64,000 nt of DNA from an uncultured Poribacteria bacterium (GTDB lineage Bacteria; Poribacteria; WGA-4E; WGA-3G), in assembly GCA_951813545.1 (NCBI GenBank), contig CATOTL010000002.1, positions 5,185 through 69,184 of the forward strand, read 5' to 3'. Under the pieces are notes generated by a model. That model made no database searches, was not told the origin of the DNA, and was given only the letters and a program-made list of their open reading frames with translations. Position numbers and translations under genes: made by a program. This document shows, one piece after another, positions 5,188-38,568 of the stretch; position 1 is the stretch's first letter; each line of letters starts with the position of its first letter.

Positions 5188-5207
5188 CCCAAAGCTAAAG
5201 CATTGGG
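5188..5207 (+). repeat. CTAAAG-loop hairpin, copy 2
   Basis: CCCAAAGC TAAA GCATTGGG, followed by CTTT. Confidence 0.55.
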
Positions 5208-5290
5208 CTTTACGACCGAATGCCCGTAAAGTGGGGAGGTCTCACGCTAACCTTTATTCCCCTCGGCAAACGGCGTGACCCATCTATTAA

Positions 5291-12148: not shown

Positions 12149-12228
12149 AGAAAGCACCCTCCTCCATGTTTTTCCTATGTAAAGCAACTGCCACCGCCAC
12201 CACAAAATAAATCAAGTGCTAACACGGT

Positions 12229-12687: not shown

Positions 12688-12790
12688 AGGAAGCACCCTC
12701 CTTTACTTATTTTCCTCTCGCCATCGTTTCCATCGTCTTTTTTGTCCTTGTGTTCTTCTGCGGACATTCGCTTTTTCTTTGTGATGCACT

Positions 12791-23406: not shown

Positions 23407-23871
23407 ATGGCTGGCGAGCCGAAAACGCGTGGGGAAAATATGAAAATAGATGATCCTAAATCCGAGAAAGCGACCATAGAGAACTTCTCCTTTTTAGATA
23501 AAGACGGAGAATACATCGGGAAGGTTTCCCGGACAGTATCCAAGAACTATCCCAATCCCAAGTGGACAGCGTTTTTGGGGATATTCGGGATCAAAAGTTT
23601 TGAAAACATAGAGGACGCAATAGAATGCGTCAAAGAGACAGCAAAGCATCCTGAAAACATTCAGGAACGCTATGCTATAAAAAAGATGCAACCTGACCCA
23701 AAACCTGAAATGCAAGTGTTTATAGATGAAGGCAAGTCGGAAATTGAGGCGACTGTCGCAGTCGTGAATTTGGACACTGGACAACGCTCGTATGGCACAG
23801 CCGTTCAGGACAAGTCCAAGAAATCGGACGTGTGCGCGAAGCAGAAGGCTATCTCAAAACCGCACAGATAA
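23407..23871 (+). CDS. Hypothetical protein with a truncated Rad52-like annealing motif at the C-terminus
   Basis: LDTGQRSYGTAVQ..DVCAKQKAISK parallels the motif in 24251..25258. Alternative start at 23440. Confidence 0.45.
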   Translation: MAGEPKTRGENMKIDDPKSEKATIENFSFLDKDGEYIGKVSRTVSKNYPNPKWTAFLGIFGIKSFENIEDAIECVKETAKHPENIQERYAIKKMQPDPKPEMQVFIDEGKSEIEATVAVVNLDTGQRSYGTAVQDKSKKSDVCAKQKAISKPHR

Positions 23872-25300: not shown

Positions 25301-25933
25301 ATGCCAGAAAATCTTGAGCGTCGAGGCAACAAACGATACCATATCTATGACTGCGAACGCTGCGGTATACATGTTGAAGAGTGGGTAGATGTCCAAATCC
25401 CACCCGGATTCAAGTATTGTGACGTATGTGCAATAATCTTTATAGATGAATTACTTACGGAACTTAAGCAAGGCGAAATGTTTGTTGTGTTCGAGGAGCA
25501 CGAAAAAGAATTAGCGGACATGGGTATCGACAAATTCACTTTTTGGGCTGCTGTCAAAGTCAGAAGCGGAATCTTGTCAAGAGCGGAGATGACCGAAGTC
25601 CAAATGGTTAGCGTCATTGAATCTCTGCGTACCAAACCTCTGCCGAAATGGATTGCGGACTTGAAAGAACCAAATCATAAGGTTCGCTTATTCGCAATTA
25701 CAGAGGAATATAAGAGCGAATTACCGGAAGAGATTTGGGACAAAATCAAGCAAAAGACGGGTGTCAAGGACCTTAGACGGCTGACGTTAGCGCATGCGAA
25801 AACATGTTACGATGAGATACGCGCTGAACTCGGCATGGACGTGGATACCGATGAGCCGCCTGAAGGAGACACTGCTGAAGAAAAGCAAGAGGCTTCAGAA
25901 CCCGAAACGTCGGAGAGCAATATCCCATTTTAA
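25301..25933 (+). CDS. Zinc-ribbon protein sharing the C-terminal module and IPF tail of the SSAP-like gene
   Basis: N-terminal CERC...CDVC motif. The C-terminal 165 aa are near-identical to 24251..25258. Confidence 0.6.
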   Translation: MPENLERRGNKRYHIYDCERCGIHVEEWVDVQIPPGFKYCDVCAIIFIDELLTELKQGEMFVVFEEHEKELADMGIDKFTFWAAVKVRSGILSRAEMTEVQMVSVIESLRTKPLPKWIADLKEPNHKVRLFAITEEYKSELPEEIWDKIKQKTGVKDLRRLTLAHAKTCYDEIRAELGMDVDTDEPPEGDTAEEKQEASEPETSESNIPF

Positions 25934-27480: not shown

Positions 27481-27891
27481 ATGAATTATCAGAAACGTCC
27501 AGCCCCACGTGCAGCTGTCCGATTGATGACACGGGTGGTACAACGATTCACACCAGAGCCGCCAGTTTTTGAAGGTGTGCCAGCGTCTATCGACATTGAC
27601 GAACCGGTTGAATTGTATCCGGGCTTTGAAAAATTTGTCAAGATGCGCTATTTCACTGGTACACCTGTAGCAGATGGACCCTTCACGATAGATTATTATC
27701 TATCGGAAGGCGAAGCAGAAAATAATATCAACCGACTCATAGCGGATAAACCCTTGCATAAGATCAACCCGACTAAACCCTTTGGGTTTCCAAATTCACA
27801 TTTTGATGGCACAGTCAAGTTTTATGTGCCAGAGGATTGGGTGTATATTGGTAGGACATTATGGGGAGTAATCACGATTTATCAAGGGTAA
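27481..27891 (+). CDS. Hypothetical protein
   Basis: 136-aa ORF, 2 nt after the previous stop. Confidence 0.55.
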   Translation: MNYQKRPAPRAAVRLMTRVVQRFTPEPPVFEGVPASIDIDEPVELYPGFEKFVKMRYFTGTPVADGPFTIDYYLSEGEAENNINRLIADKPLHKINPTKPFGFPNSHFDGTVKFYVPEDWVYIGRTLWGVITIYQG

Positions 27892-27896: not shown

Positions 27897-28913
27897 TTAT
27901 TCGATTTCCAACAATTCGCGCAACTCCTTTTCAAATGCCAAGTTGATGACCCCGTGCAGGATGTTGCCCGGCGGATTAGACCGAAAATAATAGGACAGAT
28001 CGTTTGTAAGGATACCTGCTGCCTTGTATAAATTCGTTACATCCAACCCGAATTTCTGTGTCCAATAGCCTGCGATAATTTCATCGTTGCCCCAATAAGG
28101 TGCGTATGTGCGCATCCACTCTATAAAATCTTTGTGATGCGTGTGGTAATGTTTCGCCGGATACGTCCATAGCGAACATGCGGGTTTTAGGATCGTTGTC
28201 CGTTGCGTCGATACGCCTGACATCTCCAGCAATGCATCGACAGATATTCCGCTTTTCTCTATATCCAACGCGAGTTTATGGAGAAGATGCGCCTCTAAAT
28301 CTTTATTATCGGTAATCGAAATATGGAGATACCCTGCCTGTTTCGGCAAGTTAGGCGTATGCGTGAACATCTTGTTCGGTAGAAGTTCCTCTGGGTTGTT
28401 TAAATCCCGTGTGCTTTCGTTGGGCATGAACAATATATCCGCATCCCAAACCCAAAGCCATTCATACCCCGCAAACCGTTCGTCCCAGTAAGCAACCATC
28501 TGTCTACCAAGATACCCCCAACTCCCGTCTTTGCTTTTTTCAAGCGGCTCCGTGGTGAACCAAATCACATCGTTGTCTATGTCCACAAAGTTTTTTTCAA
28601 AAGTCGGAATGACACGATCTGCGAGGATGTCCTCTACAAAAAATTTGATTTCAACCGCGCGCAATATAGCATCTGTGTACTTCAGACACGACCACCGAGA
28701 ATAAATTGCATACCGAACCCACGCCTCGATGTTCGCAACACGGGTATAGTCATCCCGAAAAAGCGGGATCAGGCACAATATATCTGGATTGACGAAAGGG
28801 GGAACATCAATCGGTGCTTGTAAGTCAGGCAACCGCCATGCCCCCCGATACATCGGATCAATCCAATCAGAGGTTGTCCCATGTGCTGGAAACGGCTTAT
28901 TGTTAATTCGCAT
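27897..28913 (-). CDS. Putative GT-A-type glycosyltransferase (DxD)
   Basis: 338 aa. WLWVWDADILF is DxD-like. Sits in the glycan island. Confidence 0.35.
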   Translation of the reverse strand: MRINNKPFPAHGTTSDWIDPMYRGAWRLPDLQAPIDVPPFVNPDILCLIPLFRDDYTRVANIEAWVRYAIYSRWSCLKYTDAILRAVEIKFFVEDILADRVIPTFEKNFVDIDNDVIWFTTEPLEKSKDGSWGYLGRQMVAYWDERFAGYEWLWVWDADILFMPNESTRDLNNPEELLPNKMFTHTPNLPKQAGYLHISITDNKDLEAHLLHKLALDIEKSGISVDALLEMSGVSTQRTTILKPACSLWTYPAKHYHTHHKDFIEWMRTYAPYWGNDEIIAGYWTQKFGLDVTNLYKAAGILTNDLSYYFRSNPPGNILHGVINLAFEKELRELLEIE

Positions 28914-28916
28914 ACT

Positions 28917-29336
28917 TTAGTTGTTTAGTGCCGCTTGACGGATCGCAACAAGCCCATAATAGGATTTATTCGCCGCAAGATTTGAAGGTACAGTGCCGTC
29001 CACCTGCCCTGCATGTTCCCCCCGAGTGACATTCATCTCAGCTGCACCACTCGGTGTCATGGTCGCTGCAAGCACATTAGTTCCAGAACCGAAAGACCAA
29101 TTCGAGTCTGCTGTGCCAGCCAAGATATTGTTTTGGACTGTCTGTCGCGCAGCAGCAGTCTCATAGATCGCGAAACCAATATCTGTCGCCGCAGGATCAA
29201 ATCCAGGGTTATATTTAATCGGCACAGTAAAACTCTCACTTGCACCCACAGTAGAATCATAACTTTCCACACGTATTGAAGCTGTTTCAGACTCTACTCT
29301 TGCATTAATCAAAAATACATCAACATCATTTGGCAT
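28917..29336 (-). CDS. Hypothetical S/T/A/N-rich beta protein
   Basis: 139-aa ORF. A possible substrate or structural protein. Confidence 0.5.
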   Translation of the reverse strand: MPNDVDVFLINARVESETASIRVESYDSTVGASESFTVPIKYNPGFDPAATDIGFAIYETAAARQTVQNNILAGTADSNWSFGSGTNVLAATMTPSGAAEMNVTRGEHAGQVDGTVPSNLAANKSYYGLVAIRQAALNN

Positions 29337-29352
29337 GATATGCCTCCTTTTT

Positions 29353-29634
29353 TTAGTCGTTTAAGTTTTCTGTTTCGCCCATATTTTTGAGTTCGTTCAG
29401 GCTGGTGTCGTAATAATTAACATCTTCGACACGGACACGGTAATACTCGAGGAGAATGGCTTTATACATTTCTCCTTCATGTTCCACTTCCACGATATAG
29501 TATGTGCGTTCTAACGCGTTTATCGCGTGAAGCGGCACATCCGGGTTAAGAAGCAAACAGGGAAACGGGTCTGTGATCGATTTTTCAAACATCACACTTT
29601 CTTCTATAAAATCTCCGTTAAGATCAAAAGGCAT
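29353..29634 (-). CDS. Hypothetical protein
   Basis: 93-aa ORF. Confidence 0.5.
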   Translation of the reverse strand: MPFDLNGDFIEESVMFEKSITDPFPCLLLNPDVPLHAINALERTYYIVEVEHEGEMYKAILLEYYRVRVEDVNYYDTSLNELKNMGETENLND

Positions 29635-29643
29635 TTTTATTCC

Positions 29644-30216
29644 TCATAGATTGAGTTTGACCAAAGCAATGTTATCCGTTTGTGGGTGGTGCGCGGGGAC
29701 CTGCACAACTAACAGCCGCGGGTCTCCAATCGCCTGAAGTCGGGTATAAAGCCGAGAGATGCGCACGTCCTCACAAACCATGATAGATGGCTCTGCACAA
29801 AGTGCTGAATACAAAGTAAAGAAAACATTTTGTTGTTCGTCATGGTGGTCGCCATCGTCAATAATCAGATGATAAGGACCGTGTTCTTTCGCTGCAGCGA
29901 CCCCCTCGGCTGTATAAGCATCCACTTGGAGAAACGTCCCTTTCTCGCCGAATTCAGATGTTAGGGGCAGAATATCCAACCCTACAAACTTTTCAACAAA
30001 CGGCATCTGTGAAAAAGCGTGTCCACTCCCTTCACCGAAACGGCTTACCCCTATCTCTAAAATCCGTATAGGCACTTCAACGATCGCTAACAATGCAATA
30101 AAGATAAAATCGTAGAGATCGCTATAATCGTGCGCGGATACGGTCTTATCGGAAGCAGATGCTTTTAGATAGTTTGATGGACGGTCTTTTAAGATATTTC
30201 TAATCATCATCACCAT
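29644..30216 (-). CDS. Class I SAM-dependent methyltransferase, CmcI/rhamnosyl-O-methyltransferase-like
   Basis: ILEIGVSRFGEGSG (motif I), VGLDI, LIIDDGDHH. Confidence 0.5.
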   Translation of the reverse strand: MVMMIRNILKDRPSNYLKASASDKTVSAHDYSDLYDFIFIALLAIVEVPIRILEIGVSRFGEGSGHAFSQMPFVEKFVGLDILPLTSEFGEKGTFLQVDAYTAEGVAAAKEHGPYHLIIDDGDHHDEQQNVFFTLYSALCAEPSIMVCEDVRISRLYTRLQAIGDPRLLVVQVPAHHPQTDNIALVKLNL

Positions 30217-30317
30217 TGCCGCTGTAAACTGCGTTTATGATAAACGTGCTTGTGGCGTTGGGCATCCCGAACACCGATACAAAAACCGGTAATACTGTCA
30301 ATAAAAGATTCCGACGT

Positions 30318-30740
30318 TTACGAAACATCTCCCACCTCTATTCCAACAACAATCAACCCGTGTTTCCTATTCAGTGCTTCTAAGGATGTAAAGATATTGC
30401 CCATCAATCCGGATGTGCCTTCCAAAATCTCTAAAGCCTTATCAGACACAAGAAACGGATCATCAGAGACCGCATATTCCAGATCCTTGTAGTTTGATAC
30501 TGGAATATGATATAGAGACGGGGTGTATGGAGAACTGTTAAATAACGGAGCAGAACATAATTCCATTTCTTTCATCTGAAAAATGATAACAGGATTCCTA
30601 ATCATATGTGCCAGTTGAAACTTTCTATATATCTCTATCAATTTTGTATCTGTTCCCTCATGTGAAACGATAGCAAACGCAAGCGGTTCTTCTCGAGATT
30701 TATAGACATCTAACGTGAAATGGTCTAAGTTTAGGTTCAT
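30318..30740 (-). CDS. Hypothetical protein
   Basis: 140-aa ORF abutting the GT gene. Confidence 0.5.
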   Translation of the reverse strand: MNLNLDHFTLDVYKSREEPLAFAIVSHEGTDTKLIEIYRKFQLAHMIRNPVIIFQMKEMELCSAPLFNSSPYTPSLYHIPVSNYKDLEYAVSDDPFLVSDKALEILEGTSGLMGNIFTSLEALNRKHGLIVVGIEVGDVS

Positions 30741-31688
30741 CTATAACACCCTCCGTATGATGTCGTTCAGTTGACCCAGCGATGCATCATAAGACCAATT
30801 CTCTTTCGCAAATTCCACATTATCTGCCGATGTTGCATCCGCGTCATCAAAATTATTAAGGATGGCGAGGCACTCTTGTAGTGTCGTGAACCGATGCGCG
30901 TTCGGCCACTCGTCAAAACACAGATGCGGACCCGCGACAATCTCTAAACCGGCAGCGTGTGCCTCCATGCCCATACGGTTACAGGTTTCGTAATGTGAGT
31001 TGACGACAAAAAATCGGGCTTCACCCATAATGGTGGCAACCTTGTTAGCGGGCTGTTGTCCGTGAAATACGTCTACAGACGCTTTAAGCGATCTTTCTAA
31101 CATAAGAGATTTGTAATCCGGGTTCCCCCACCCTGATGCCGATCCTATATAGCCTGTCTCAACCGTTTTTAGATTATTGAAAAGCTCGATAAAAAATTCA
31201 GAGTTCTTAGCGGTGGATATATTGCCACCAGATAACACGGTATCCCCCCGTGTTCTGCTGGGACGGAACAGGTCGCAATCAATAGGTTCGCGCACGATAC
31301 CCAAGACAGGGAGTTGGAAGTCCTGCATATAGTTGAGTTGCCATTTGCAGTTAGCAATCCAGCCATCAACGCATTTCTTTAGTTCTTCAATCGCAAAGCC
31401 GGGCCATCTCAACAATTCGCTATCTGAACCATATACAAAAACAAAAGCATCGTGTGCTTTGAGGTCTTTTGAAAGTTGTTCTATCCGCTCAAAATCGTTG
31501 ATAGCAAGAAGCTCACAGATGATTACATCAACTTCGGCATTTCTAAAAGTGTCCTGCGTTGCGATCTCGATGGTGTGGATACCGCTGTCTTCCCACGCCT
31601 TTGTGACCGCACTTGTTTTTGTGCCCATTCCCCCGGCACTTCTGTTGTTGATGAAGTGGGGGTTTGAGATATAGCAGATTCGGGACAT
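30741..31688 (-). CDS. GT-B (GT4-like) glycosyltransferase
   Basis: N-terminal ICYISNP..SAGGMG and C-terminal FVVNSHYETCNRMGMEAHAAGLEIVAG (E-x7-E-like). GAGGAGG lies 7 nt upstream. Confidence 0.6.
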   Translation of the reverse strand: MSRICYISNPHFINNRSAGGMGTKTSAVTKAWEDSGIHTIEIATQDTFRNAEVDVIICELLAINDFERIEQLSKDLKAHDAFVFVYGSDSELLRWPGFAIEELKKCVDGWIANCKWQLNYMQDFQLPVLGIVREPIDCDLFRPSRTRGDTVLSGGNISTAKNSEFFIELFNNLKTVETGYIGSASGWGNPDYKSLMLERSLKASVDVFHGQQPANKVATIMGEARFFVVNSHYETCNRMGMEAHAAGLEIVAGPHLCFDEWPNAHRFTTLQECLAILNNFDDADATSADNVEFAKENWSYDASLGQLNDIIRRVL

Positions 31689-32308
31689 TTACCTTCCTCC
31701 TCGATCTTCGTTACTATAGCAGAAAATACGTCGTTTATGGGTAGATGGGCTTCAATAACATGGAAGCAAGGAATATGTCTGCCTGCCCACTGACAGAAAT
31801 CGCCCGCTCTTTTGTCTATCAGTTCGGCTTCTTCAGGCTGTATCTCAGAAGTTTTGTCGCGTGCGACGCAGCGCTGCATCGCACGCCTACAACTTAGTTT
31901 TAAGAAAATAGACATGTCAGGGGCCCTGACAAACTCGCAAAGCACTTTGAAATATCTATGCCAGTAGTCTTCTTCAAGATTCCAAATCTCGCTCCAGAAG
32001 GTATCTATAAACACAGGGATATTTTCAAAAGACGCATTTGACTGGATAACTTTCTGACGTATCAGGTTTTCCAAAAACATAACGTTGCTTCGACCGCTAT
32101 TTTTGTAGGTCCCTTCATCGAACAAAGACCTGAGATATGCTCTATATTCCGACATCGTTTTTATAGCATCTCGAAAATCAGACGCTTTCTCCTCCCCATC
32201 CCAAGGGTGCGGATCCACACGGGCTATCTCACCATTATACCTATTAGCGAGCAACGCACACAGTTCAGTTTTACCGCTGCCGCTGATACCGTCTAAAGAA
32301 ATCAGCAT
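31523..32308 (-). CDS. P-loop nucleoside/nucleotide-kinase-like protein
   Basis: ISLDGISGSGKTEL is a Walker A motif. The last ~55 aa overlap the GT gene out of frame. Confidence 0.5.
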   Translation of the reverse strand: MLISLDGISGSGKTELCALLANRYNGEIARVDPHPWDGEEKASDFRDAIKTMSEYRAYLRSLFDEGTYKNSGRSNVMFLENLIRQKVIQSNASFENIPVFIDTFWSEIWNLEEDYWHRYFKVLCEFVRAPDMSIFLKLSCRRAMQRCVARDKTSEIQPEEAELIDKRAGDFCQWAGRHIPCFHVIEAHLPINDVFSAIVTKIEEEGKCPESAISQTPTSSTTEVPGEWAQKQVRSQRRGKTAVSTPSRSQRRTLLEMPKLM

Positions 32309-32309
32309 G

Positions 32310-32993
32310 TTATTCCTCTCTCAAAAGTCGCGATAAATTACCTAAACATCTATTATACCATTTCTCAACGACTTCATGTGTGGTGAGCGCGTCATCAAAA
32401 ATACTTGCATCTAATTTGATTTCTGACGGATATTCCATACCGAGCCATTGATATAAACCCTTACACACCGCGTTAGGGTCGGTCTGAAAATCTTCACTGC
32501 GTATACGATAAGGTGCTATATCGTGCTTTGTGAAATAGTCGTCCCATGCCTGATAGCCTATGATGATCTGGGCGACGCGCCGCTTGATTTTTTTGACAGG
32601 CACTTTATCCGGGGCATCTTGTAGCGAAGATTCTATCGCCTGTCGCCACGGGTCACGTTCAACATAGATATATCGCGTATCCGGTAAGCAGGTATCCGTG
32701 AATTCTTTTATGCCGATACTTAGACATTCATGCATTGCACGGACATGACTCCAGACCATACGCATACCCAATATGCCATTTGATCTTCGCGCTTCTAAGG
32801 CATCTTTGACGCTGTCAATGGTTGCGTTCTCGTTGAGCACATCAAATCGAGCCACTTCAAAAAACTCATTGGGTTCACCGCATCCGAGAGTGCTTAGATG
32901 TGCCGCTAATACGCCTGACCGAGAACGACCTGTAGAAACTATCAAATAATTCAAAAGAGTTTTGTGTACGATGCCATGACGGAGTTGTACCAC
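32310..32993 (-). CDS. Stf0-family sulfotransferase-like protein 2
   Basis: LIVSTGRSRSGVLAAHL (5'-PSB-like loop), MRMVWSH, YIYVERDPWRQAIES. Alternative TTG start at 32954, overlapping the upstream stop as TTGA. Confidence 0.55.
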   Translation of the reverse strand: MVQLRHGIVHKTLLNYLIVSTGRSRSGVLAAHLSTLGCGEPNEFFEVARFDVLNENATIDSVKDALEARRSNGILGMRMVWSHVRAMHECLSIGIKEFTDTCLPDTRYIYVERDPWRQAIESSLQDAPDKVPVKKIKRRVAQIIIGYQAWDDYFTKHDIAPYRIRSEDFQTDPNAVCKGLYQWLGMEYPSEIKLDASIFDDALTTHEVVEKWYNRCLGNLSRLLREE

Positions 32994-33613
32994 TCCTTGT
33001 TAGTGTTTGTGAAAGTCCGCAATATGTTGTCAGTGATGTTTCTGCTTTTAGCACGAATCCCTAAAAACCTACAAATAGTTGCGAGCGTCCCTGTTTTATC
33101 CGCTATAAAATCTTCAAATTCTATGGTGAGTGGCGTGATACCGTATTTATCAAAAAAACGCAACCATGCTATATTCTCGATAGAATTTAGATGTATGCGA
33201 TCCCATATAGCGTCTTCTGGCACTTCCTGTGCTGCTAATTCCGCATCAGCGGCACGATATTTTTCCATTTCTACTGGGTCATGCACATGCTGTGAGTCAA
33301 GCCGTAAATGCTTTTCTCGTGAGAGCGCCTGCATCACTCTGTTTCTGCGCGTTAGATGTATCCATTTCGGGTCAGGCAAAACTTTCGTGAGAAACTTAAA
33401 TGCATCTTCACAATGGTATTGCAAAGCGTCCCAAGATACTTTTGCACCGACTGCATTGCCTACCTTCTCATTATCCAAATAGGCTCGGTATGCTTCTATG
33501 TTATCAAACCTTTTATTGAAGATAGCATCGGGGGAGCCTGCACCAATCTGCTTCAAATAATCGCAGAGTAGCGTACTACCTGTCCTGCCTTCTGTGACTA
33601 TGTAGTAGTTCAT
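32951..33613 (-). CDS. Stf0-family sulfotransferase-like protein 1
   Basis: YYIVTEGRTGSTLLCDYL, GAKVSW, WIHLTRRNRVMQALS. ATGA overlap with the upstream kinase gene. Confidence 0.65.
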   Translation of the reverse strand: MNYYIVTEGRTGSTLLCDYLKQIGAGSPDAIFNKRFDNIEAYRAYLDNEKVGNAVGAKVSWDALQYHCEDAFKFLTKVLPDPKWIHLTRRNRVMQALSREKHLRLDSQHVHDPVEMEKYRAADAELAAQEVPEDAIWDRIHLNSIENIAWLRFFDKYGITPLTIEFEDFIADKTGTLATICRFLGIRAKSRNITDNILRTFTNTNKEWYNSVMASYTKLF

Positions 33614-34203
33614 AAATTATCAATACGCTGAACAGCGGCATCAAAAACATCATCCGCACTTTTGTTGCCGTCTATGGTGATAATAGGATACGGCAATGTT
33701 TGTGATAGGAGCCTGAATGTTTTTCGGTTTTCAGGGGTGGAATCATGTGTTTTATAAGGCAGGGTTCGCGCTTCTACATGTTCCATGTTCTCATTTTCCC
33801 TGCGAAGTAAACGTTCCATTTGGGTATCATACGACACATCTAAAAATATAGAAGCGGTTGGCAACATATCTGCTGCGTAAGTTAGATAATCGGAGAAAGC
33901 CTGTGCTTCTTCTATATCAAAAAAAATACATCTTGTTAGAAATAAATCAACGATGATATTATCTTCCCAAAGTTGCATAGCTGTTTTTGCGACTAAAAGC
34001 CTTTCTATATTTCGTGTGACGCTATCGCCTTTGAAAATATCGCAGAAGATGAACGCGGCATTTTGAAGATTAATCGGCAATTTTGTTATAGGCAGCGGGT
34101 AGAACCCGTATGGCTGATACGACACTAACCTATAATGTTCTGATAGTCGTTCCTTAAGCGTGGATTTACCGGACCCAGAACAGCCCTCAATTGTGATAAT
34201 CAT
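33610..34203 (-). CDS. P-loop nucleoside/nucleotide-kinase-like protein
   Basis: IITIEGCSGSGKSTL is a Walker A motif. About 197 aa, dNK/dNMP-kinase-like length. Confidence 0.5.
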   Translation of the reverse strand: MIITIEGCSGSGKSTLKERLSEHYRLVSYQPYGFYPLPITKLPINLQNAAFIFCDIFKGDSVTRNIERLLVAKTAMQLWEDNIIVDLFLTRCIFFDIEEAQAFSDYLTYAADMLPTASIFLDVSYDTQMERLLRRENENMEHVEARTLPYKTHDSTPENRKTFRLLSQTLPYPIITIDGNKSADDVFDAAVQRIDNL

Positions 34204-34211
34204 AATGAAAA

Positions 34212-35036
34212 CTACCTTTCAAACGGTATTTTTAAGTCTTCCATTAATTTATATGAATAATCTCTTGTCTCAACAGCACGCTCTCTATTTGCGGTTATTA
34301 GCGGGTTGGTATCTATTAGCACAGACAAGCTATTGCCGTTCATCGCCATCATATAACGAACCAATCCTCTCTGCACGATAGTATACATCCAGTCCTCTTT
34401 GTACCAATATAAAGGCGGCATCACCTCAAGGGTGGTAAGACGGGGTGGATTTCTCAAAAACGCTAACACCTTTTCTGCGCCGTATGGCGTAACAAAGAGA
34501 GCACTTACGCTTTGACCTAAAACGCCCTGAAAAAACTCTGAGGGGCCAGGCACTACATTATGTGCGTAAGAACGGGCTTTGCTGTAAGCACCGTGAGGAT
34601 CCACGCCATAATCCAACTGACAAATACCTACACGGTTTGGTGTGTCTCGCGTGGCGTTAACCAAACTATTCAATATATTGTATAAGTCGTGATATGTTTT
34701 AGTGAAACGAACATCGTCTGAAATTAATAATACATTCTTCTGCACATCCACACATCTTAGAAGTCCGCGTATTTGCACTTCTAACAATGATAAATCCCAG
34801 TATTTCATGATGTTTGCGTCATCAAGATTAAGGACTTCTTTCCACGCATCAAAGCCAAGTTCTTCAAAAGAGACCAACAATTCTTCTGTGCTATATTCTC
34901 CGTAGGGTTTCACCCATACAACTTCATAAATATCTTCATGCACAGGGAATTCTAAAGCCTCTAATGCACCTATCTGCGAAGCACGCCTATACCATTGATC
35001 CTCGCATGATGTCGCTAACACCTTTTCAAATGCCAT
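34212..35036 (-). CDS. GT25-like glycosyltransferase candidate
   Basis: NVLLISDDVRF and SALFVTPYGAEKVL resemble GT25 (LPS glycosyltransferase) motifs by eye. Confidence 0.35.
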   Translation of the reverse strand: MAFEKVLATSCEDQWYRRASQIGALEALEFPVHEDIYEVVWVKPYGEYSTEELLVSFEELGFDAWKEVLNLDDANIMKYWDLSLLEVQIRGLLRCVDVQKNVLLISDDVRFTKTYHDLYNILNSLVNATRDTPNRVGICQLDYGVDPHGAYSKARSYAHNVVPGPSEFFQGVLGQSVSALFVTPYGAEKVLAFLRNPPRLTTLEVMPPLYWYKEDWMYTIVQRGLVRYMMAMNGNSLSVLIDTNPLITANRERAVETRDYSYKLMEDLKIPFER

Positions 35037-35043
35037 AAATTTC

Positions 35044-36111
35044 CTATATGAAGTTGAGATGCTGCGTAGGCTCTATAAGTTGTTTTATTAGGTCATTGTT
35101 AGGCTTCAAATGACAACGAACGCATTCTTTACTTATATCAAAAGCCTCATAGAACGAATCTAACGCACCTGAACGCCAAGCATCTGCGAGTCGCACTTCG
35201 TTAAGGTCAGCAATCACCGCTTTCGGACGGTATTTCATTATGCAGCATGGATAGAGTTTGCCATCAGCACCTATCGTTGGCGCGATATTTGAATAGTAGC
35301 AAATATCGCCAGAGGTGTATTTCGGAAAATCTTCAAGGGATCTATCTGAAAAATGGTTGACGATCTGGACATCCGAAGTCGTTTCTGCTATATCTTTGAT
35401 AATAGCATCGGCTTCAATATGTTGTTCAGGGGTGAGTTCTATATCAGGGATATAGTCGCCCTCAAAAACGACACCGCCATACCGGACATAATCCGCACCT
35501 AACTTCGCACCTAACTTCGCAATCTCTCGGAGTTCGTGCTGGTTGCCTTGCTGGACAATAAAGGATATGCCAATAGTGGCTTTAGCATCGGATAATGCTT
35601 TTATTGCTTTGCACGCTTTCTCAAAATCATTCTCCCGAGAGACATGCACCTTGCAATGCGTTTCGGGCGTTGCTGAATCTAAAGAAACTCTCATCCATGT
35701 TGCTTCGCGCATTAAATTTGCAATGTCGTCAAAGTGTTTATCTCTCCATGCACCATTTGTTACCATCCCGTAATCAAACCCACGCGCTTTGATGGATTCT
35801 AACACAACCGGGATTTCAGGATGGAGTGTCGGCTCGCCACCACCTGTAAGTTCTATGGCTTTAACGCCTAAATCTGCTGAGTCATCAAGTATTTCTATGA
35901 TGGTTTCAAGCGATAGCCAATCTTTGAGTTCAAAGTTCGCATTGATGTTGTCGTCTTTCGTGTACCGATACATACAGAACGGGCAGTCGTGATTACAGAA
36001 CGCTACAGGATCAAACTGGACTTTTCGCGGAAATACCCTCTCGCCTTTTTTGAATTGCTCTATTTCTTTATAGTATTTTGTTATTTTTACCAACGAACTT
36101 TGCATAATCAC
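35044..36111 (-). CDS. Radical SAM enzyme with a C-terminal SPASM/twitch-like Cys cluster
   Basis: CNHDCPFCMY (CxxxCxxC), ELTGGGEPT, and C-terminal CYYS..CC..CVRC. Confidence 0.75.
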   Translation of the reverse strand: MIMQSSLVKITKYYKEIEQFKKGERVFPRKVQFDPVAFCNHDCPFCMYRYTKDDNINANFELKDWLSLETIIEILDDSADLGVKAIELTGGGEPTLHPEIPVVLESIKARGFDYGMVTNGAWRDKHFDDIANLMREATWMRVSLDSATPETHCKVHVSRENDFEKACKAIKALSDAKATIGISFIVQQGNQHELREIAKLGAKLGADYVRYGGVVFEGDYIPDIELTPEQHIEADAIIKDIAETTSDVQIVNHFSDRSLEDFPKYTSGDICYYSNIAPTIGADGKLYPCCIMKYRPKAVIADLNEVRLADAWRSGALDSFYEAFDISKECVRCHLKPNNDLIKQLIEPTQHLNFI

Positions 36112-36239
36112 ACCAACTTGTATTTTTCCAACGCTCTCTTTGTTCTTGCATGGGTTTTAGGATCTATCTGAGATCTTATAGATTTGCCCAGCGCGTCTGT
36201 AAGGCTGATAGTCCATCGTTAGTATTATAATTTTATCAA

Positions 36240-36953
36240 TCATACGTCCTCTTTATTTATCTGAATTCTGTCCTGATCGTCCTTATAGCGTTCGTGGCCA
36301 AACCAACGAGTGTCCACAACATTAGTGCCTTCCGCATCTTTTGATCTGCTATAGATACCGGGAACCCCCCACATACCAGCTATCAAATCTTCAAAGGCAT
36401 CTGGCTCTTTAAGGAACTCAGTAATAATATAATCTGCACCCGATTTTGACATAAGCAGCCCACTATCGCCCCTTCCCAGAGCACCCTTCATAATTTTCAA
36501 ATCGGGGCATACCCATATTTCTTCATGATCAACATCGTTAAATCGAGACCACCTCAACTGTAAAAATAAAAAGTCTTCGTTAAAATCATGGGTTAAAGTC
36601 ATGCAAATTTCATAGAGTTCATGCGCTTTTAAGAGTAATACATTATCGTCTTGATTGTAATACCCATAAGAATATTCTTGGCAATCTCTGATAGACTCAA
36701 GAATCCTTAAAGTTCCCCACAAATATCCTATATCACCCCGTGGCTGCTTACGCAGGTAATCACAATCAAAGATCGGGTATCCGTCTTTTATCGCAGCATC
36801 ACCCATCGTAGCTGATGTTTCATAATCCAGACCGTGAGGGGCTTTATGGATAATGACATCTTCAATACTAATACCGAGCGTTTGATAGTTGCCAAACAAC
36901 ATATATTTCCGATCTGTGCGATGTTCAAGATTTAAGTTGTTGAAAGAGATCAT
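36240..36953 (-). CDS. GT25-like glycosyltransferase candidate
   Basis: N-terminal ISFNNLNLEHRTDR, GDIGYLWG, and GLLMSKSGADYI. Confidence 0.35.
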   Translation of the reverse strand: MISFNNLNLEHRTDRKYMLFGNYQTLGISIEDVIIHKAPHGLDYETSATMGDAAIKDGYPIFDCDYLRKQPRGDIGYLWGTLRILESIRDCQEYSYGYYNQDDNVLLLKAHELYEICMTLTHDFNEDFLFLQLRWSRFNDVDHEEIWVCPDLKIMKGALGRGDSGLLMSKSGADYIITEFLKEPDAFEDLIAGMWGVPGIYSRSKDAEGTNVVDTRWFGHERYKDDQDRIQINKEDV

Positions 36954-37204
36954 CAGTCAAGACATCCTTGTAGCACGGAATGGGTATGATGGCATTTAAA
37001 GCAGTAAGGAACGGTCGCAGTCTCAAGAAACGCAGCATCTAAATCCTGTTGCGGCTGCGCACCTTTTTCGGGGTTACGTGAAACCACTTCGCCTGCGAGG
37101 TGTTCGGAGACTTCTTCAGGGCATCCAATTTCGGGGTTTAAGGACGCTCGCCCGGCTTCAAGCGAGTTTTGAATTGTAATATACTCGTCACTCCATACTT
37201 CCAT
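36953..37204 (-). CDS. Hypothetical protein
   Basis: 83-aa ORF with a 1-nt overlap to the next gene. Confidence 0.45.
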   Translation of the reverse strand: MEVWSDEYITIQNSLEAGRASLNPEIGCPEEVSEHLAGEVVSRNPEKGAQPQQDLDAAFLETATVPYCFKCHHTHSVLQGCLD

Positions 37205-37342
37205 CTGATACTCCTTTCGCTAATTTGAAAAGTGGGTACACGACCACCGCTTCATTAGTGTCACCGCCACTGTGAAAGACATCCGGTAAAGCTATCTCCT
37301 CAAAATAACTTTTATTCATCATCAAAATCTTCAGTGTGGAAA

Positions 37343-37362
37343 CCCCTGTCTTTAGGCAGGGG
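37343..37362 (-). repeat. CTAAAG-loop hairpin, copy 5
   Basis: Plus strand reads CCCCTGTC TTTA GGCAGGGG. Confidence 0.6.
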
Positions 37363-37748
37363 AGGAAACACTGCTCCTTTTTTAGTTTAGATTCCCCGAA
37401 GTGGGGTGCGAGTTGTTTTTTCACCACAAACTCGTAGGTGATTTTCTCCGAGTGGGATGCTTCTTTTCGGAAGTGCTGTCACCATCTCCAATCCGACCTG
37501 ACCCGGTGTCTTTGAAAAAACAGGTAATAGGCTTTCGCCCTCCCTTTCGGGTTGTATGTTGCCCCGTCGAGATCGCAATGCTCACGGTTACCTGAGACTT
37601 GGGGAGCATCCTTAAGTAAATACCTACCACAGATACCTACTGTTTCACAGACATGTTGAAGCTGCCACACTCCAGCATTGCGATATATTACTCTATTCAG
37701 CAAATTTACAATCATTCAACCTATAGGACGGCTACCGTATTGAACAAT

Positions 37749-37768
37749 CTCCTGCCTTTAGGCAGGAG
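37749..37768 (-). repeat. CTAAAG-loop hairpin, copy 6
   Basis: Plus strand reads CTCCTGCC TTTA GGCAGGAG, a perfect 8-bp stem. Confidence 0.6.
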
Positions 37769-37848
37769 TCACTGAACTCCATAAGGCAAAACGTTGACTG
37801 TAAGACAACGTACTTTTTAGTTTAACAGTTTTTTGCGTTTCCTGTCAA

Positions 37849-38568
37849 TCAAAATTTGAAAACGATAGCACCCATCGGCGTAAATGAAATTTCCGCTCCA
37901 TCATTATGGATATAGGTTCGAGTGTCTACGACTAACGATAAACCAAGTCCTTCTGTAACATCAATACCCATTTGAGAACGACCTATCAAAACTACAGGAA
38001 CAACCTCTCGCTCAGTTATGGGAACGTATGCAGTTACGGAATTCTCAACCTTCCACCTCTCAAAAGCGGTCCGAACTACACCGTTGACGTTATCTACATC
38101 AGGAAGGGTGTATGTGTTAGAAGGGTCATCGGTAAAGTATTTGATTGGGTTGCCGTCAGCATCAAAGCCATCAAGCCCCCCGTCTGTGACAGGATCACTA
38201 CCGCGAAATGAAGCCCCCGCGGAAATGTCCAACGCCCCGATGCTGAAGTTGACAACTCCACCTACATCAACGACACCCCCTAATTCGTCTTTGTTGTAAG
38301 ATCCGAAAGGTTGGAAACCTACCGTATCGTTAAAGTTATACTGTAAGGACACATTGCCTATCAGCGAAGTCGTGTCGGATTTCTGTGCCTGTGCATCAAC
38401 AGCGAATTCAATATCCTCTACAGATTTTTCATAATCACCCAACACGCCGATAGTATTTTCGGTGAAATTCACACCCACCTGATTCGCAAAGACATTGGAT
38501 ACAAAAAGTATCATCAGTACAAACAACACAAAGACAAAAATCGGAATTCCAAAACGTACGTATTTCAA
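37849..38568 (-). CDS. Outer-membrane beta-barrel protein (signal peptide, C-terminal Phe)
   Basis: TTG start with AAGGAG 6 nt upstream. The N-terminus ...VSNVFA looks like a signal peptide. Alternating beta pattern, ending VFKF. Confidence 0.6.
   Translation of the reverse strand: MKYVRFGIPIFVFVLFVLMILFVSNVFANQVGVNFTENTIGVLGDYEKSVEDIEFAVDAQAQKSDTTSLIGNVSLQYNFNDTVGFQPFGSYNKDELGGVVDVGGVVNFSIGALDISAGASFRGSDPVTDGGLDGFDADGNPIKYFTDDPSNTYTLPDVDNVNGVVRTAFERWKVENSVTAYVPITEREVVPVVLIGRSQMGIDVTEGLGLSLVVDTRTYIHNDGAEISFTPMGAIVFKF

What the first reader, a model, noticed from the sequence alone, without database searches (positions are those of the whole stretch)
27897..37204. Phage-borne glycan-tailoring island with sulfotransferases, kinases, glycosyltransferases, a methyltransferase and a radical SAM enzyme
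Fourteen co-directional, tightly packed genes sit between the early block and the lysis/envelope cassette.

Seen in the sequence:
- two proteins with the Stf0-type PAPS-binding loop (EGRTGSTLLCDYL and STGRSRSGVLAAHL), plus the downstream W-S-W/H and R-R/D..QA..S motifs;
- two Walker-A kinases of dNK/dNMP-kinase size;
- a GT-B enzyme;
- a DxD protein;
- two GT25-like proteins (ISDDVRF, GA..L motifs);
- a CmcI-like SAM methyltransferase;
- a CxxxCxxC radical SAM enzyme with a SPASM-like Cys cluster.

Established knowledge: Stf0-family enzymes sulfate sugars using PAPS. GT25 enzymes act on LPS/LOS cores. CmcI-like enzymes O-methylate sugars.

Inference: the phage encodes a pathway that makes or remodels a sulfated, methylated glycan. 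The target could be host LPS/LOS or capsule (seroconversion, superinfection exclusion) or a virion protein, for example the S/T/N-rich 139-aa product of 28917..29336. An alternative is DNA hypermodification, because a P-loop kinase plus radical SAM plus GT combination recalls the thymidine hypermodification clusters of phages. I do not know of a described phage system that combines paired sulfotransferases with this gene set.
Basis: partly seen in the sequence, partly recalled or inferred. Interest (0 to 1): 0.85.

Follow-up and report, generated by a model that had tools for sequence, protein, structure and literature searches.

The report
Phage–host shared glycan sulfation gene cassette
A phage of sponge-symbiont bacteria (probably Poribacteria) carries a 9-kb block of sugar-adding, sugar-tailoring and sulfate-adding enzymes; the same block also sits in Poribacteria chromosomes, so it looks like a new mobile kit for making a sulfated glycan whose target is still unknown.

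Summary
Window 27897-37204 carries 14 co-directional, tightly packed minus-strand genes.

Confirmed by HMM or structure:
- two Stf0-family sulfotransferases;
- two dNK/Tmk-like P-loop kinases;
- a radical SAM/SPASM enzyme;
- a GT4-type GT-B;
- an orphan DxD GT-A (gp338).

Weaker calls:
- The two "GT25-like" proteins fail PF01755 directly. They join GT25 only through relatives.
- The "CmcI-like" protein is at best a weak TylF/MycE-type sugar O-methyltransferase.

New findings:
- The phage is a very divergent podovirus from sponge metagenomes.
- A core Stf0-A, Stf0-B, kinase, GT-B, gp140 recurs in other phage contigs. The same order occurs in a 6-Mb Poribacteria chromosome among cellular genes.
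- GT-B + gp140 occur in all seven other gene arrangements that reach that position. Three small non-enzymatic protein families recur beside them.

My reading: a mosaic, phage-host-exchanged cassette builds a sulfated, tailored glycan on a non-DNA acceptor. I rank protein above envelope polysaccharide above small molecule.

DNA hypermodification is disfavoured. No base-hydroxymethylating gene was found, the GT-B resembles GT4 enzymes rather than T4 beta-GT, and all 14 proteins are acidic.

The acceptor is not established. I rate this a new variant of a known kind, moderately high interest.

The parts
36953..37204 (-). gp83, a small acidic protein with a C-terminal Cys/His cluster (CFKCHHTH...C). 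First gene of the block. Function unknown.
   Evidence: ORF. No Pfam or PHROG hit. Homologous segments occur in L089 5834-6418 and L001 6507-6977, next to the cassette.
36240..36953 (-). gp237, a divergent GT25-like (GT-A) glycosyltransferase.
   Evidence: No Pfam, PHROG or NCBIfam hit. A jackhmmer run on the ORFs of the 10 sources joins it to gp274 and more than 15 paralogues in L001, L085 and L086-L089. The local BLAST match to gp274 has E=0.001.
35044..36111 (-). Radical SAM enzyme with a C-terminal SPASM domain (CNHDCPFC cluster plus auxiliary Cys cluster).
   Evidence: PF04055 at 1.1e-21 and PF13186 at 2.6e-7. Best PDB relatives are PqqE, SkfB, MoaA and BlsE. NCBIfam hits are all far below cut-off. 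A 52%-identical orthologue lies in L086/L087 beside an SDR epimerase and a PhyH dioxygenase.
34212..35036 (-). gp274, a divergent GT25-like glycosyltransferase (motifs YRR, SDD, GA..L).
   Evidence: No direct Pfam hit. The profile search finds P0007 and P0009, which pass PF01755 (27 bits against 24). The best PDB match is non-significant (E 0.09) but spans the full length of the GT25 domain of procollagen galactosyltransferase 1.
33610..34203 (-). Kinase A, a P-loop kinase of the dNK/Tmk/NMP-kinase type. Substrate unknown.
   Evidence: AAA_18 at 3.4e-8, Thymidylate_kin at 5.6e-6 and dNK at 9e-6. The profile matches dGK 2jaq at 1.7e-10 and Tmk, and no APS kinase appears among the best 60 hits. 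The orthologue in L086/L087 is 50% identical.
32951..33613 (-). Stf0-A, a Stf0-family PAPS-dependent sulfotransferase.
   Evidence: PF09037 at 1.1e-19 and 1TEX at 4.8e-11. Orthologues at 38-49% identity lie in L001, L002, L086/L087, L088 and L089, always next to Stf0-B.
32310..32993 (-). Stf0-B, a second Stf0-family sulfotransferase. It is 25% identical to Stf0-A and forms a separate orthologous lineage.
   Evidence: PF09037 at 2.3e-9. Orthologues at 32-60% identity lie in the same loci, and each pairs with an A-type gene.
31523..32308 (-). Kinase B, a Tmk/dNK-like P-loop kinase. It has an S/T/P/K-rich tail that overlaps the next gene by 166 nt.
   Evidence: Thymidylate_kin at 3.5e-8, 33.8 bits against 27. 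Orthologues lie in L001, L002, L086/L087, L088 and L089, directly upstream of the GT-B. The overlap is shown.
30741..31688 (-). GT-B fold glycosyltransferase of GT4 (retaining) type. It is the most widely conserved enzyme of the cassette.
   Evidence: PF00534 at 26.6 bits against 26.4. The AF2 model has pLDDT 93.9. Foldseek top hits are ManT 7qsg, MshA 3c4q, SenB 8jjn (TM 0.75-0.79), PglA, PimA and BshA, with no T4 beta-GT in the top 50. The family has 77 members, mostly on 30-125 kb contigs.
30318..30740 (-). gp140, a conserved partner of the GT-B. Function unknown.
   Evidence: An equivalent follows the GT-B directly in L001, L085, L088, L089 and L090. In L002 the match is weak. No Pfam, PHROG or PDB relative was found.
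29644..30216 (-). gp190, a probable class-I SAM methyltransferase, closest to TylF/MycE sugar O-methyltransferases. The evidence is weak.
   Evidence: PDB phmmer gives 8ia9 (demethylmacrocin O-MT) at 6.9e-4 and 3ssm (MycE) at 0.042. phrog_21658 methyltransferase scores 0.004. There is no Pfam hit, including PF04989. Motifs ILEIGVSRFGEGSG and IIDDGDH are visible in the sequence.
29353..29634 (-). gp93, a single-domain member of a family that elsewhere occurs as about 160-176-aa tandem double domains. Function unknown.
   Evidence: The jackhmmer run on the ORFs of the 10 sources gives two matches each in L002 16288-16776, L088 15530-16051, L089 13564-14043, L001 14402-14887 and L090 11949-12479, all beside the cassette.
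28917..29336 (-). gp139, a small acidic protein (17% S+T).
   Evidence: The only homologue is L089 14027-14485, covering the N-terminal 76 aa. The resemblance to the L088 160/174/366-aa family is not significant (hhalign E 0.013, probability 3%).
27897..28913 (-). gp338, an orphan-family GT-A fold DxD glycosyltransferase (WVWDADILF).
   Evidence: AF2 pLDDT is 94.2. Foldseek PDB hits are all GT-A enzymes (B3GNT2, Ktr4p, XXYLT1, BoGT6a, LgtC, glycogenin) but TM is only 0.35-0.46. There are 114 relatives among 1.84 billion representatives; none of 40 scanned hits a glycosyltransferase Pfam family, and one hits a cytidylyltransferase family. Homologues lie in L002, L085, L089 and L090.
27481..27891 (+). 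p136, a convergent neighbour outside the stated limits. It belongs to a small-protein family that travels with the cassette.
   Evidence: The jackhmmer run on the ORFs of the 10 sources finds it in L088 (x2), L089 and L002, and twice within one 532-aa protein in L090. In L088 and L089 a copy lies directly after the gp140 homologue. No PHROG hit.
37205..37848 (.). A 640-nt non-coding spacer upstream of the block. It is the likely site of the block's own promoter and holds two copies of a GC-rich hairpin.
   Evidence: Sequence. A promoter-like site on the minus strand lies at 37848-37819 (10/12; not above chance overall). The hairpin CCCTGYCTTTAGGCAGGG occurs twice against 0 expected. One copy is 95% identical to a Poribacteria contig. 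No Rfam family matches.

Best explanation
The block is a mosaic auxiliary cassette exchanged between Poribacteria (sponge-symbiont) chromosomes and their phages. It builds and decorates a short glycan in the cytoplasm on a non-DNA acceptor.

Shown:
- The block encodes four soluble glycosyltransferases: a GT4-type GT-B that always comes with gp140, two divergent GT25-like GT-A enzymes, and one orphan DxD GT-A.
- It encodes two non-redundant Stf0-family sulfotransferases that form separate orthologous lineages.
- It encodes two dNK/Tmk-like kinases and a radical SAM/SPASM enzyme. It also encodes a candidate O-methyltransferase, supported only by weak hits.

Inferred:
- The glycosyltransferases add sugars from host NDP-sugars.
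- The radical SAM enzyme and the methyltransferase tailor a sugar or the acceptor.
- Stf0-A and Stf0-B transfer sulfate from host PAPS to two different hydroxyls.
- The kinases either phosphorylate the glycan or a precursor, or feed a nucleotide pool.

My ranking of acceptors within this explanation, as shares that sum to the 0.6 confidence: a protein (about 0.3), an envelope polysaccharide or lipoglycan (about 0.2), and a small molecule (about 0.1). The protein could be one of the small families p136, gp93 or gp139 that travel with the cassette, or a virion or cell-surface protein.
For: Conserved core:
- Stf0-A, Stf0-B, kinase, GT-B and gp140 occur in the same order in the window, L001, L088 and L089. 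L002 has a gp338-like gene between Stf0-B and the kinase. The short contigs L086/L087 end at the start of the GT-B.
- GT-B + gp140 also occur without Stf0 in L085 and L090.

Sugar-nucleotide logic in variants:
- L086/L087 carry an SDR epimerase/dehydratase (PF01370 at 1.4e-18) and a PhyH dioxygenase.
- L085 carries a cytidylyltransferase (PF01467 at 4.3e-16).
- One relative of gp338 also hits a cytidylyltransferase family.

Host link:
- L088 is chromosome OZ244616.1 of a Poribacteria MAG. There the cassette lies after LON-N, DctM, SSF and GT4 genes.
- L088 and L089 share about 80% nucleotide identity over the core but have different flanks, and L089 has transposases.
- L004 joins near-identical phage DNA to Poribacteria DNA.

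For a protein acceptor:
- The non-enzymatic families p136 and gp93 recur with the cassette in phage and chromosomal loci.
- The nearest relatives of the radical SAM enzyme include peptide and cofactor maturases (PqqE, SkfB).
- The only solved GT25 relative is a protein (collagen) galactosyltransferase.
- L086/L087 place a 2OG hydroxylase directly before the GT25-like gene.
- The block has no membrane protein, flippase, polymerase or initiating transferase.
- In L002, L085 and L090 the cassette is co-directional with neighbouring genes. These include terminase and adaptor genes in L085 and an MCP homologue in L002.
Against: - No acceptor is demonstrated. All function is inferred from family membership and gene order.
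- GT25, GT4, Stf0 and TylF-like enzymes fit LPS or capsule tailoring equally well.
- Top structural matches of the GT-B include several small-molecule glycosyltransferases (MshA, SenB, BshA).
- The role of two nucleoside/nucleotide-kinase-like proteins in a glycan pathway is unexplained.
- Co-occurrence of the small proteins could reflect linkage in a mobile island rather than an enzyme-substrate relation. None of them has a recognisable family.
- The Poribacteria host assignment rests on MAG and metagenome contigs, one of which (L004) may be chimeric.
Confidence: 0.6

Rival explanations
1. Host envelope remodelling. The cassette modifies Poribacteria LPS/LOS, capsule or another envelope polysaccharide with sulfated, methylated sugars. 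During infection or lysogeny this masks the receptor (superinfection exclusion) or alters recognition by the sponge.
For: - The GT25 family is defined on LOS/LPS galactosyltransferases, and relatives pass PF01755.
- GT4 fold matches include PglA, PimA and LPS glycosyltransferases.
- The nearest relatives of gp190 are sugar O-methyltransferases.
- The chromosomal copy, L088, lies next to a canonical 438-aa GT4.
- SDR and cytidylyltransferase genes occur in variants.
- Sulfated LPS and capsule exist in bacteria such as Sinorhizobium (own knowledge), and Pontiella makes sulfated GAG-like exopolymers (PMC7356697, title listed).
Against: - The block has no Und-P initiating transferase, flippase, polymerase, ligase or acyl/Gtr-type membrane protein, and no transmembrane segment at all.
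- No integrase or repressor module was recognised in the window, so lysogenic conversion is unsupported.
- The cassette sits in late-oriented gene blocks.
- This reading does not explain the conserved small proteins.
Confidence: 0.2
2. DNA hypermodification. The kinases, glycosyltransferases and sulfotransferases act on a modified base in phage DNA (glycosylation, then sulfation) to block host nucleases.
For: - Phage clusters with GT-A/GT-B enzymes plus sugar-nucleotide enzymes (cytidylyltransferase, kinase) put diverse glycans on 5hmC (bioRxiv 10.1101/2023.12.21.572611).
- P-loop kinase plus radical SAM occur in thymidine hypermodification (PMC5889632 and PMC8989533).
- Ghaly et al. 2024 cite Iyer et al. 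2013 for predicted phage nucleotide glycosylation and sulfation systems.
- L001 has a partial C5 DNA methylase five genes upstream.
- L086/L087 have a 2OG dioxygenase.
Against: - No thymidylate-synthase-like hydroxymethylase, C5-MTase, TET/JBP, aGPT-Pplase or any nucleotide-metabolism or polymerase gene was found among 73 other ORFs.
- The GT-B resembles GT4 enzymes, and T4 beta-GT is absent from the top 50.
- All 14 proteins are acidic, pI 4.2-6.6.
- The cassette also sits in a bacterial chromosome among cellular genes.
- The L086/L087 dioxygenase is PhyH-type, not TET/JBP.
- About 3 kb (by comparison with L003), and up to 16 kb, of the contig is unseen, so absence is not complete.
Confidence: 0.1
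3. Small-molecule product. The GT4 enzyme glycosylates a small acceptor. The Stf0 pair sulfates the resulting glycoside, as Stf0 sulfates trehalose. The product is a sulfated metabolite or a nucleoside-derived compound, which would also involve the kinases and the radical SAM enzyme.
For: - The best-fitting GT-B structures by TM-score are small-acceptor enzymes: SenB at TM 0.75-0.79, plus MshA, BshA, tetrahydrobiopterin glucosyltransferase and sucrose-phosphate synthase.
- A weak SenB NCBIfam hit was seen.
- The characterised Stf0 acts on free trehalose (NCBIfam NF047724 name).
- The kinases are nucleoside/nucleotide-kinase-like.
- The radical SAM enzyme has weak similarity to MoaA, viperin and BlsE, which act on nucleotides.
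Against: - Four glycosyltransferases of three types suggest an oligosaccharide rather than a single glycoside.
- There is no transporter or exporter.
- The viperin match is only 59 bits against a cut-off of 180, and the enzyme has a SPASM domain that viperins lack.
- The conserved non-enzymatic proteins are unexplained.
Confidence: 0.1

Closest known systems
Stf0 (PF09037), the trehalose 2-sulfotransferase of mycobacteria, and related bacterial carbohydrate sulfotransferases
   Same: Both phage proteins pass the PF09037 gathering score. They align to 1TEX over the PAPS 5'-phosphosulfate loop and the 3'-phosphate R...S motif.
   Different: - Identity is low: 38.7 and 22.1 bits against the 400-bit equivalog cut-off.
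- They are shorter, 220-227 aa against 287.
- They occur as an obligate A/B pair next to dNK-like kinases and a GT4 enzyme, on a phage.
- The acceptor is unknown.
Virus-encoded virion glycosylation: mycobacteriophage capsid and tail glycosylation, and chlorovirus/mimivirus glycan machineries (own knowledge; phage example mentioned in PMC11256854)
   Same: In both, soluble virus-encoded glycosyltransferases (plus methyltransferases) act in the cytoplasm. In some relatives the cassette lies in late-oriented gene blocks that include terminase, adaptor or capsid genes. gp338 has GT8-like structural neighbours in giant viruses and uncultured phages.
   Different: - I know of no sulfotransferases, kinases or radical SAM enzyme in those systems.
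- No glycosylated virion protein is identified here.
- The cassette also occurs in a bacterial chromosome.
Phage DNA glycan hypermodification clusters: C5-MT + 5mYOX/TET + GT (bioRxiv 10.1101/2023.12.21.572611), and thymidine hypermodification with 5-HMUDK (PMC5889632, PMC8989533)
   Same: Both are phage gene clusters that combine glycosyltransferases, a kinase, a radical SAM enzyme and sugar-nucleotide enzymes.
   Different: - The defining base-activating enzymes (ThyA-like hydroxymethylase, C5-MT + TET, aGPT-Pplase) were not found.
- The GT-B is not T4 beta-GT-like.
- The proteins are acidic.
Phage seroconversion modules (GtrABC, O-acetyltransferases; own knowledge) and rhizobial sulfation loci (NodH with NodPQ, LpsS; own knowledge)
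   Same: Both are mobile or accessory genes that change a surface glycan. In the rhizobial loci a sulfotransferase is accompanied by a dedicated kinase (the APS kinase in NodQ).
   Different: - The block has no membrane Gtr-type proteins.
- The kinases here match dNK/Tmk, not APS kinase.
- No lysogeny module was seen.
GT25 family (LOS beta-1,4-galactosyltransferases; procollagen galactosyltransferase 1)
   Same: The motif pattern and length agree. Relatives P0007 and P0009 pass PF01755. The best PDB match is the GT25 domain of COLGALT1 over its full length.
   Different: - gp274 and gp237 themselves fail PF01755.
- The PDB match is not significant (E 0.09).
- The family is strongly expanded in these loci, with about 7 paralogues in L085.

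Membership tests
Stf0 sulfotransferase (PF09037) | HMM score above the Pfam gathering cut-off | tested here: met
   Scores are 71.4 and 37.6 bits against a cut-off of 22. 1TEX is the best PDB hit at 4.8e-11.
Stf0 sulfotransferase (PF09037) | PAPS-binding 5'-PSB loop and 3'-PB Arg/Ser motif | tested here: met
   GRTGST / GRSRSG align to QRSGST of 1TEX. R89 is invariant in 7 sequences and is followed by QA..S.
Stf0 sulfotransferase (PF09037) | Equivalog of trehalose 2-sulfotransferase (NF047724) | tested here: not met
   Scores are 38.7 and 22.1 bits against a cut-off of 400. The proteins belong to the family but are not the trehalose enzyme.
Stf0 sulfotransferase (PF09037) | PAPS-dependent sulfate transfer to a sugar | not testable with these tools
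   This needs an enzyme assay.
Radical SAM / SPASM | CxxxCxxC cluster, PF04055, and a C-terminal PF13186 auxiliary-cluster domain | tested here: met
   CNHDCPFC is present at the start of the PF04055 match (residues 37-199). PF04055 scores 78.2 bits against 29.5, and PF13186 scores 31.2 bits against 21.5.
Prokaryotic viperin (pVip) with kinase | Score above the NF038283 cut-off and a viperin C-terminal domain | tested here: not met
   The score is 59.4 bits against 180, covering the radical SAM core only. A SPASM domain replaces the viperin C-terminus. The PADLOC pVip hit at 6e-18 is a generic core match.
GT25 (PF01755) | Direct HMM match above the gathering score | tested here: not met
   gp274 and gp237 give no hit at E<=0.1.
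GT25 (PF01755) | Homology to proteins that do pass PF01755 | tested here: met
   P0007 and P0009 are found with the gp274 profile at 1e-70 to 1e-74. They score 27.3 and 27.2 bits against 24. gp237 joins the family in the jackhmmer run on the ORFs of the 10 sources.
GT4 / GT-B (PF00534) | HMM match and a two-Rossmann-domain GT-B fold resembling GT4 enzymes | tested here: met
   PF00534 scores 26.6 bits against 26.4, which is marginal. The AF2 model has pLDDT 93.9. Foldseek gives E about 1e-12 to ManT, MshA, SenB, PglA and PimA.
GT-A DxD glycosyltransferase (gp338) | GT-A Rossmann-like fold with a conserved DxD | tested here: met
   The AF2 model has pLDDT 94.2. All top PDB hits are GT-A enzymes, but TM is 0.35-0.46. 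D157 and D159 are >=90% conserved. None of the 40 relatives scanned hits a glycosyltransferase Pfam family.
CmcI / TylF-type O-methyltransferase | Match to PF04989 or a significant match to a solved family member | tested here: inconclusive
   There is no Pfam hit. Hits are 8ia9 at 6.9e-4, 3ssm at 0.042 and a PHROG methyltransferase at 0.004.
dNK / thymidylate kinase P-loop kinases | Walker A motif plus an HMM match across the whole domain | tested here: met
   Kinase B scores 33.8 bits on Thymidylate_kin against 27. Kinase A scores 34.4 bits on AAA_18 against 29.4. The profile matches 2jaq at 1.7e-10 over positions 1-196. Substrate specificity was not tested.
APS kinase (CysC/NodQ) | Closest relatives are APS kinases | tested here: not met
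   No APS kinase appears among the 60 best PDB matches or the Pfam hits.
Thymidine / cytosine DNA hypermodification clusters | A base-activating enzyme on the same genome (ThyA-like hydroxymethylase, or C5-MT + TET/5mYOX) | tested here: not met
   These families are not among the 14 Pfam families found in 73 non-island ORFs. About 3-16 kb of the contig was not seen.
Phage seroconversion (Gtr-type) | Membrane GtrA/GtrB/Gtr(type) proteins or an acyltransferase | tested here: not met
   No island protein has a convincing transmembrane segment, and there are no such Pfam hits.

The most novel reading that the evidence does not exclude
Phages of Poribacteria use this cassette to coat a virion or phage-released protein with a sulfated, methylated glycan that imitates the sulfated matrix glycans of the sponge. 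This would let the particle persist in, or adhere to, the sponge mesohyl, or escape sponge phagocytes. It would be the first sulfated glycoprotein made by a bacteriophage. It would also be a second route, besides ankyrin 'Ankyphage' proteins, by which symbiont phages act on the animal host.
Probability: 0.1. Interest if true: 0.9.

Novelty: new variant of a known kind. Interest (0 to 1): 0.62.

Why it matters
Virus-encoded glycosylation is known, and sulfotransferases are listed as viral auxiliary genes in metagenome surveys. I found no described phage system with these three features together:
- a conserved pair of Stf0 sulfotransferases;
- nucleotide-kinase-like enzymes;
- several glycosyltransferases.

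I also found none shown to be shared with its host's chromosome.

The hosts are uncultivated sponge symbionts that live in a matrix rich in sulfated glycans. A phage-borne sulfation kit is therefore a concrete, testable handle on phage, symbiont and animal interactions.

The work also defines several families that can be expressed and assayed:
- the GT-B + gp140 pair;
- the gp338 GT-A family;
- the expanded GT25-like clade;
- the p136 and gp93 families.

Tried and rejected
- Known phages. Megablast of the block against INPHARED phages gave no match. tblastn of Stf0-A, the 511-aa protein and the portal also gave none. The phage is too divergent for annotated references.
- Pattern scans. Scans of IMG/VR and GTDB with the Stf0-A alignment found no relative.
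- Look-ups of window proteins. Look-ups of 63320-63985, 37849-38568, 27481-27891 and P0001 found nothing on record. I therefore could not see whether the closest relatives, L003 and L004, carry the block.
- APS-kinase idea for the two kinases. Rejected on sequence, because the best relatives are dNK/Tmk.
- attP idea for the 60-nt match to Poribacteria DNA at 37319-37378. It is a short GC-rich hairpin present twice in the spacer and near a lipoprotein gene in L088. It is not a tRNA or an obvious attachment site.
- Rfam. No family matched in the window or the spacer.
- gp139. The link to the L088 160/174/366-aa family is not significant by hhalign.
- PHROGs and PDB searches for gp140, p136, gp93-like and neighbouring proteins found nothing.
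- PADLOC. The pVip and VakA hits were judged generic.
- Iyer et al. 2013, which predicted phage nucleotide glycosylation and sulfation, is not held in the library. That precedent is cited second-hand only.

Full report
**1. Observation**

The region 27897-37204 holds 14 ORFs, all on the minus strand. Gaps run from -166 to +128 nt. GC content and skew match the rest of the window.

Pfam confirms the following:
- Two Stf0 sulfotransferases. PF09037 scores 1.1e-19 for 32951-33613 and 2.3e-9 for 32310-32993.
- Two P-loop kinases with dNK/thymidylate-kinase matches (33610-34203 and 31523-32308).
- A radical SAM enzyme with a SPASM domain (35044-36111).
- A borderline GT1/GT4 match for 30741-31688.

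Five proteins had no Pfam hit: 237 aa, 274 aa, 190 aa, 140 aa and 338 aa. NCBIfam and PHROGs added nothing specific.

A profile of seven Stf0-like sequences finds the mycobacterial Stf0 structure 1TEX first (4.8e-11). The PAPS loop and the R...S motif align to it.

**2. Proteins without a family**

gp338:
- A full HMMER search of 1.84 billion representatives found 114 relatives.
- None of 40 relatives scanned hit a glycosyltransferase Pfam family. One hit a cytidylyltransferase family.
- AF2 with that alignment gave pLDDT 94.2.
- Foldseek returned only GT-A glycosyltransferases (B3GNT2, Ktr4p, XXYLT1, BoGT6a, LgtC, glycogenin) at low TM, 0.35-0.46.
- D157 and D159 (the DxD) are at least 90% conserved.
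- I conclude that gp338 is an orphan GT-A family.

gp274 and gp237:
- The gp274 profile search found six proteins. Two of them (P0007, P0009) pass PF01755 with about 27 bits against a cut-off of 24.
- The best PDB match is not significant (E 0.09). It nevertheless spans the full GT25 domain of procollagen galactosyltransferase 1.
- gp237 converges on the same family in a jackhmmer run on the ORFs of the 10 sources.
- 'GT25-like' is therefore fair as remote homology, but not as direct membership.

gp190:
- Its only relatives are a TylF-type macrolide-sugar O-methyltransferase (8ia9, 6.9e-4) and MycE (0.042).
- This is a weak call.

GT-B:
- The model (49-sequence alignment, pLDDT 93.9) matches retaining GT4 enzymes at E about 1e-12. 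These are ManT, MshA, SenB (TM 0.75-0.79), tll1591, PglA, PimA and BshA.
- T4 beta-glucosyltransferase is not in the top 50.

Kinases:
- The kinase profile matches deoxyguanosine kinase and thymidylate kinases.
- No APS kinase appears among the best 60 hits.

**3. The phage**

- No nucleotide or protein match exists in INPHARED.
- The window has a P22/SU10-type portal, a weak major-head-protein match, a CHAP lysin, an SNase homologue, HU, and a 4113-aa ORF.
- Among 73 non-island ORFs, Pfam found only 14 families.
- None is a DNA polymerase, thymidylate-synthase-like enzyme, C5-methyltransferase, TET-like dioxygenase, PAPS-pathway enzyme or integrase.

Contigs L003 and L004 are 90-99% identical to the window in the structural genes they share. 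They indicate a circularly permuted genome of about 67 kb.

L004 joins phage DNA, at window position about 5230, to DNA that is 98% identical to a Poribacteria chromosome. Other relatives come from the 'JAHN19-1' samples, which I take to be the sponge viromes of Jahn et al. 2019 (inference from the record name). The likely host is therefore Poribacteria, sponge symbionts. The L004 junction could still be an assembly chimera.

**4. Comparative anatomy**

Loci with the Stf0 core:
- Stf0-A and Stf0-B form two orthologous lineages. A/B identity is about 25%, and orthologues are 32-60% identical.
- They sit side by side in L001, L002, L086/L087, L088 and L089, followed by a kinase. L002 has a gp338-like gene between Stf0-B and the kinase.
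- Where the contig continues, the GT-B and gp140 follow.
- L086/L087 keep the order radical SAM, GT25-like, kinase A, Stf0-A, Stf0-B, kinase B. They add an SDR NDP-sugar epimerase/dehydratase and a PhyH dioxygenase.

Loci without Stf0:
- L085 and L090 keep GT-B + gp140, GT25-like paralogues and gp338.
- L085 also has a cytidylyltransferase.

GT-B family:
- It has 77 members, mostly on 30-125 kb contigs.
- One cluster has members on contigs of 0.24-6.07 Mb.

Chromosomal copies:
- L088 is that locus in Poribacteria chromosome OZ244616.1.
- It reads GT25-like, Stf0-A, Stf0-B, kinase, GT-B, gp145. Upstream are LON-N, DctM, SSF and GT4 genes.
- Downstream are p136 homologues, an fn3 protein, three HExxH lipoproteins and gp93-like proteins.
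- L089 shares about 80% nucleotide identity over the core but has other flanks and transposases.

Mosaicism and small proteins:
- A 1.2-kb piece (gp338 plus part of gp139) is 92% identical in otherwise unrelated contigs.
- The small families p136 and gp93 occur beside the cassette in phage and chromosomal loci alike.

**5. Mechanism**

Shown: the enzyme families and their conserved linkage.

Inferred:
- The four glycosyltransferases assemble a short glycan from host NDP-sugars.
- The radical SAM enzyme and the methyltransferase tailor it.
- The two Stf0 paralogues sulfate two positions using host PAPS, since no PAPS-synthesis gene was found on the phage.
- The role of the kinases is open.

All 14 proteins are soluble and acidic. 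No initiating transferase, flippase or polymerase is present.

I favour a protein acceptor for these reasons:
- the conserved small proteins;
- relatives of the radical SAM enzyme that are peptide or cofactor maturases;
- the collagen-type GT25 relative;
- the hydroxylase placed before the GT25-like gene in L086/L087;
- the late-block position of the cassette.

An envelope polysaccharide comes close behind.

A small-molecule product is suggested by the GT-B's resemblance to SenB and MshA.

DNA hypermodification has precedent. It lacks its defining base-activating enzymes here, and it fits poorly with the GT4-like fold, the acidic proteins and the chromosomal copy.

**6. Comparison and novelty**

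Each enzyme belongs to, or resembles, a known family.

The combination is not in the phage references or the literature I could search. That combination is:
- a paired Stf0-A/B with a dNK-like kinase;
- a GT4 enzyme with a fixed partner;
- expanded GT25-like enzymes;
- carriage on phages and exchange with the host chromosome.

I rate it a new variant of a known kind, namely virus-borne glycan-modifying auxiliary cassettes. The acceptor and the biological role remain to be shown.

Noticed in passing
window 37205-37848: A 640-nt non-coding spacer holds two copies of the hairpin CCCTGYCTTTAGGCAGGG (0 expected by chance). One copy plus its flank (37319-37362) is 95% identical to a Poribacteria WGA-3G contig (L046 1566-1609). 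It is 90% identical to L088 18334-18384, just upstream of a lipoprotein gene. No Rfam family matches. It could be a shared terminator or regulatory element.
   Followed up: partly
window ~5230 (intergenic, between 4744 and 5291); L004 1-4774: Contig L004 joins phage DNA (99.8% identical to window 4361-5230) to Poribacteria chromosomal DNA (98% identical to OX639973.1). This is either a prophage junction or a chimeric assembly. No integrase was recognised in the window.
   Followed up: partly
window 45375-57716 (-): A 4113-aa ORF has only a weak RadC/JAB match (residues 2191-2270). It is only about 70% identical at nucleotide level to L003 and L004 over the stretches compared, while the neighbouring structural genes are 90-97% identical.
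   Followed up: no
window 31523-31688 (-): The kinase B reading frame continues 166 nt into the GT-B gene in another frame, giving an S/T/P/K/R-rich tail. Orthologues in L001 and L087 have similar tails but no overlap.
   Followed up: partly
window 24251-25258 and 25301-25933 (+); also 23407-23871: Neighbouring early genes share a 159-aa segment at 94% identity, which suggests a recent tandem duplication. A third gene shares a 48-aa segment.
   Followed up: no
window 11682-12696 (-): Three adjacent ORFs (114, 84 and 155 aa) are about 62% identical paralogues.
   Followed up: no
window 27897-29113; L091 2690-3953; L092 428-1691: gp338 plus the 3' part of gp139 is 92% identical at nucleotide level to two small contigs (one from a 'JAHN19-1' sample). 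The rest of those contigs is unrelated. This looks like cassette-level mosaic exchange.
   Followed up: yes
L001 4620-5288: A 222-aa ORF five genes upstream of the L001 cassette matches the N-terminal part of C5 cytosine DNA methylase (PF00145, 2.3e-6). No counterpart was found in the window.
   Followed up: partly
L088 12947-14083, 14352-15521, 18378-19721: Three paralogous lipoproteins with an HExxH motif lie just downstream of the chromosomal cassette. Relatives occur in phage contig L085 (16231-17271 and 20090 onward).
   Followed up: no
window, whole: No tRNA genes were found. No recognisable DNA polymerase, primase/helicase or large terminase was found by Pfam in 64 kb of an approximately 67-kb phage genome.
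   Followed up: partly
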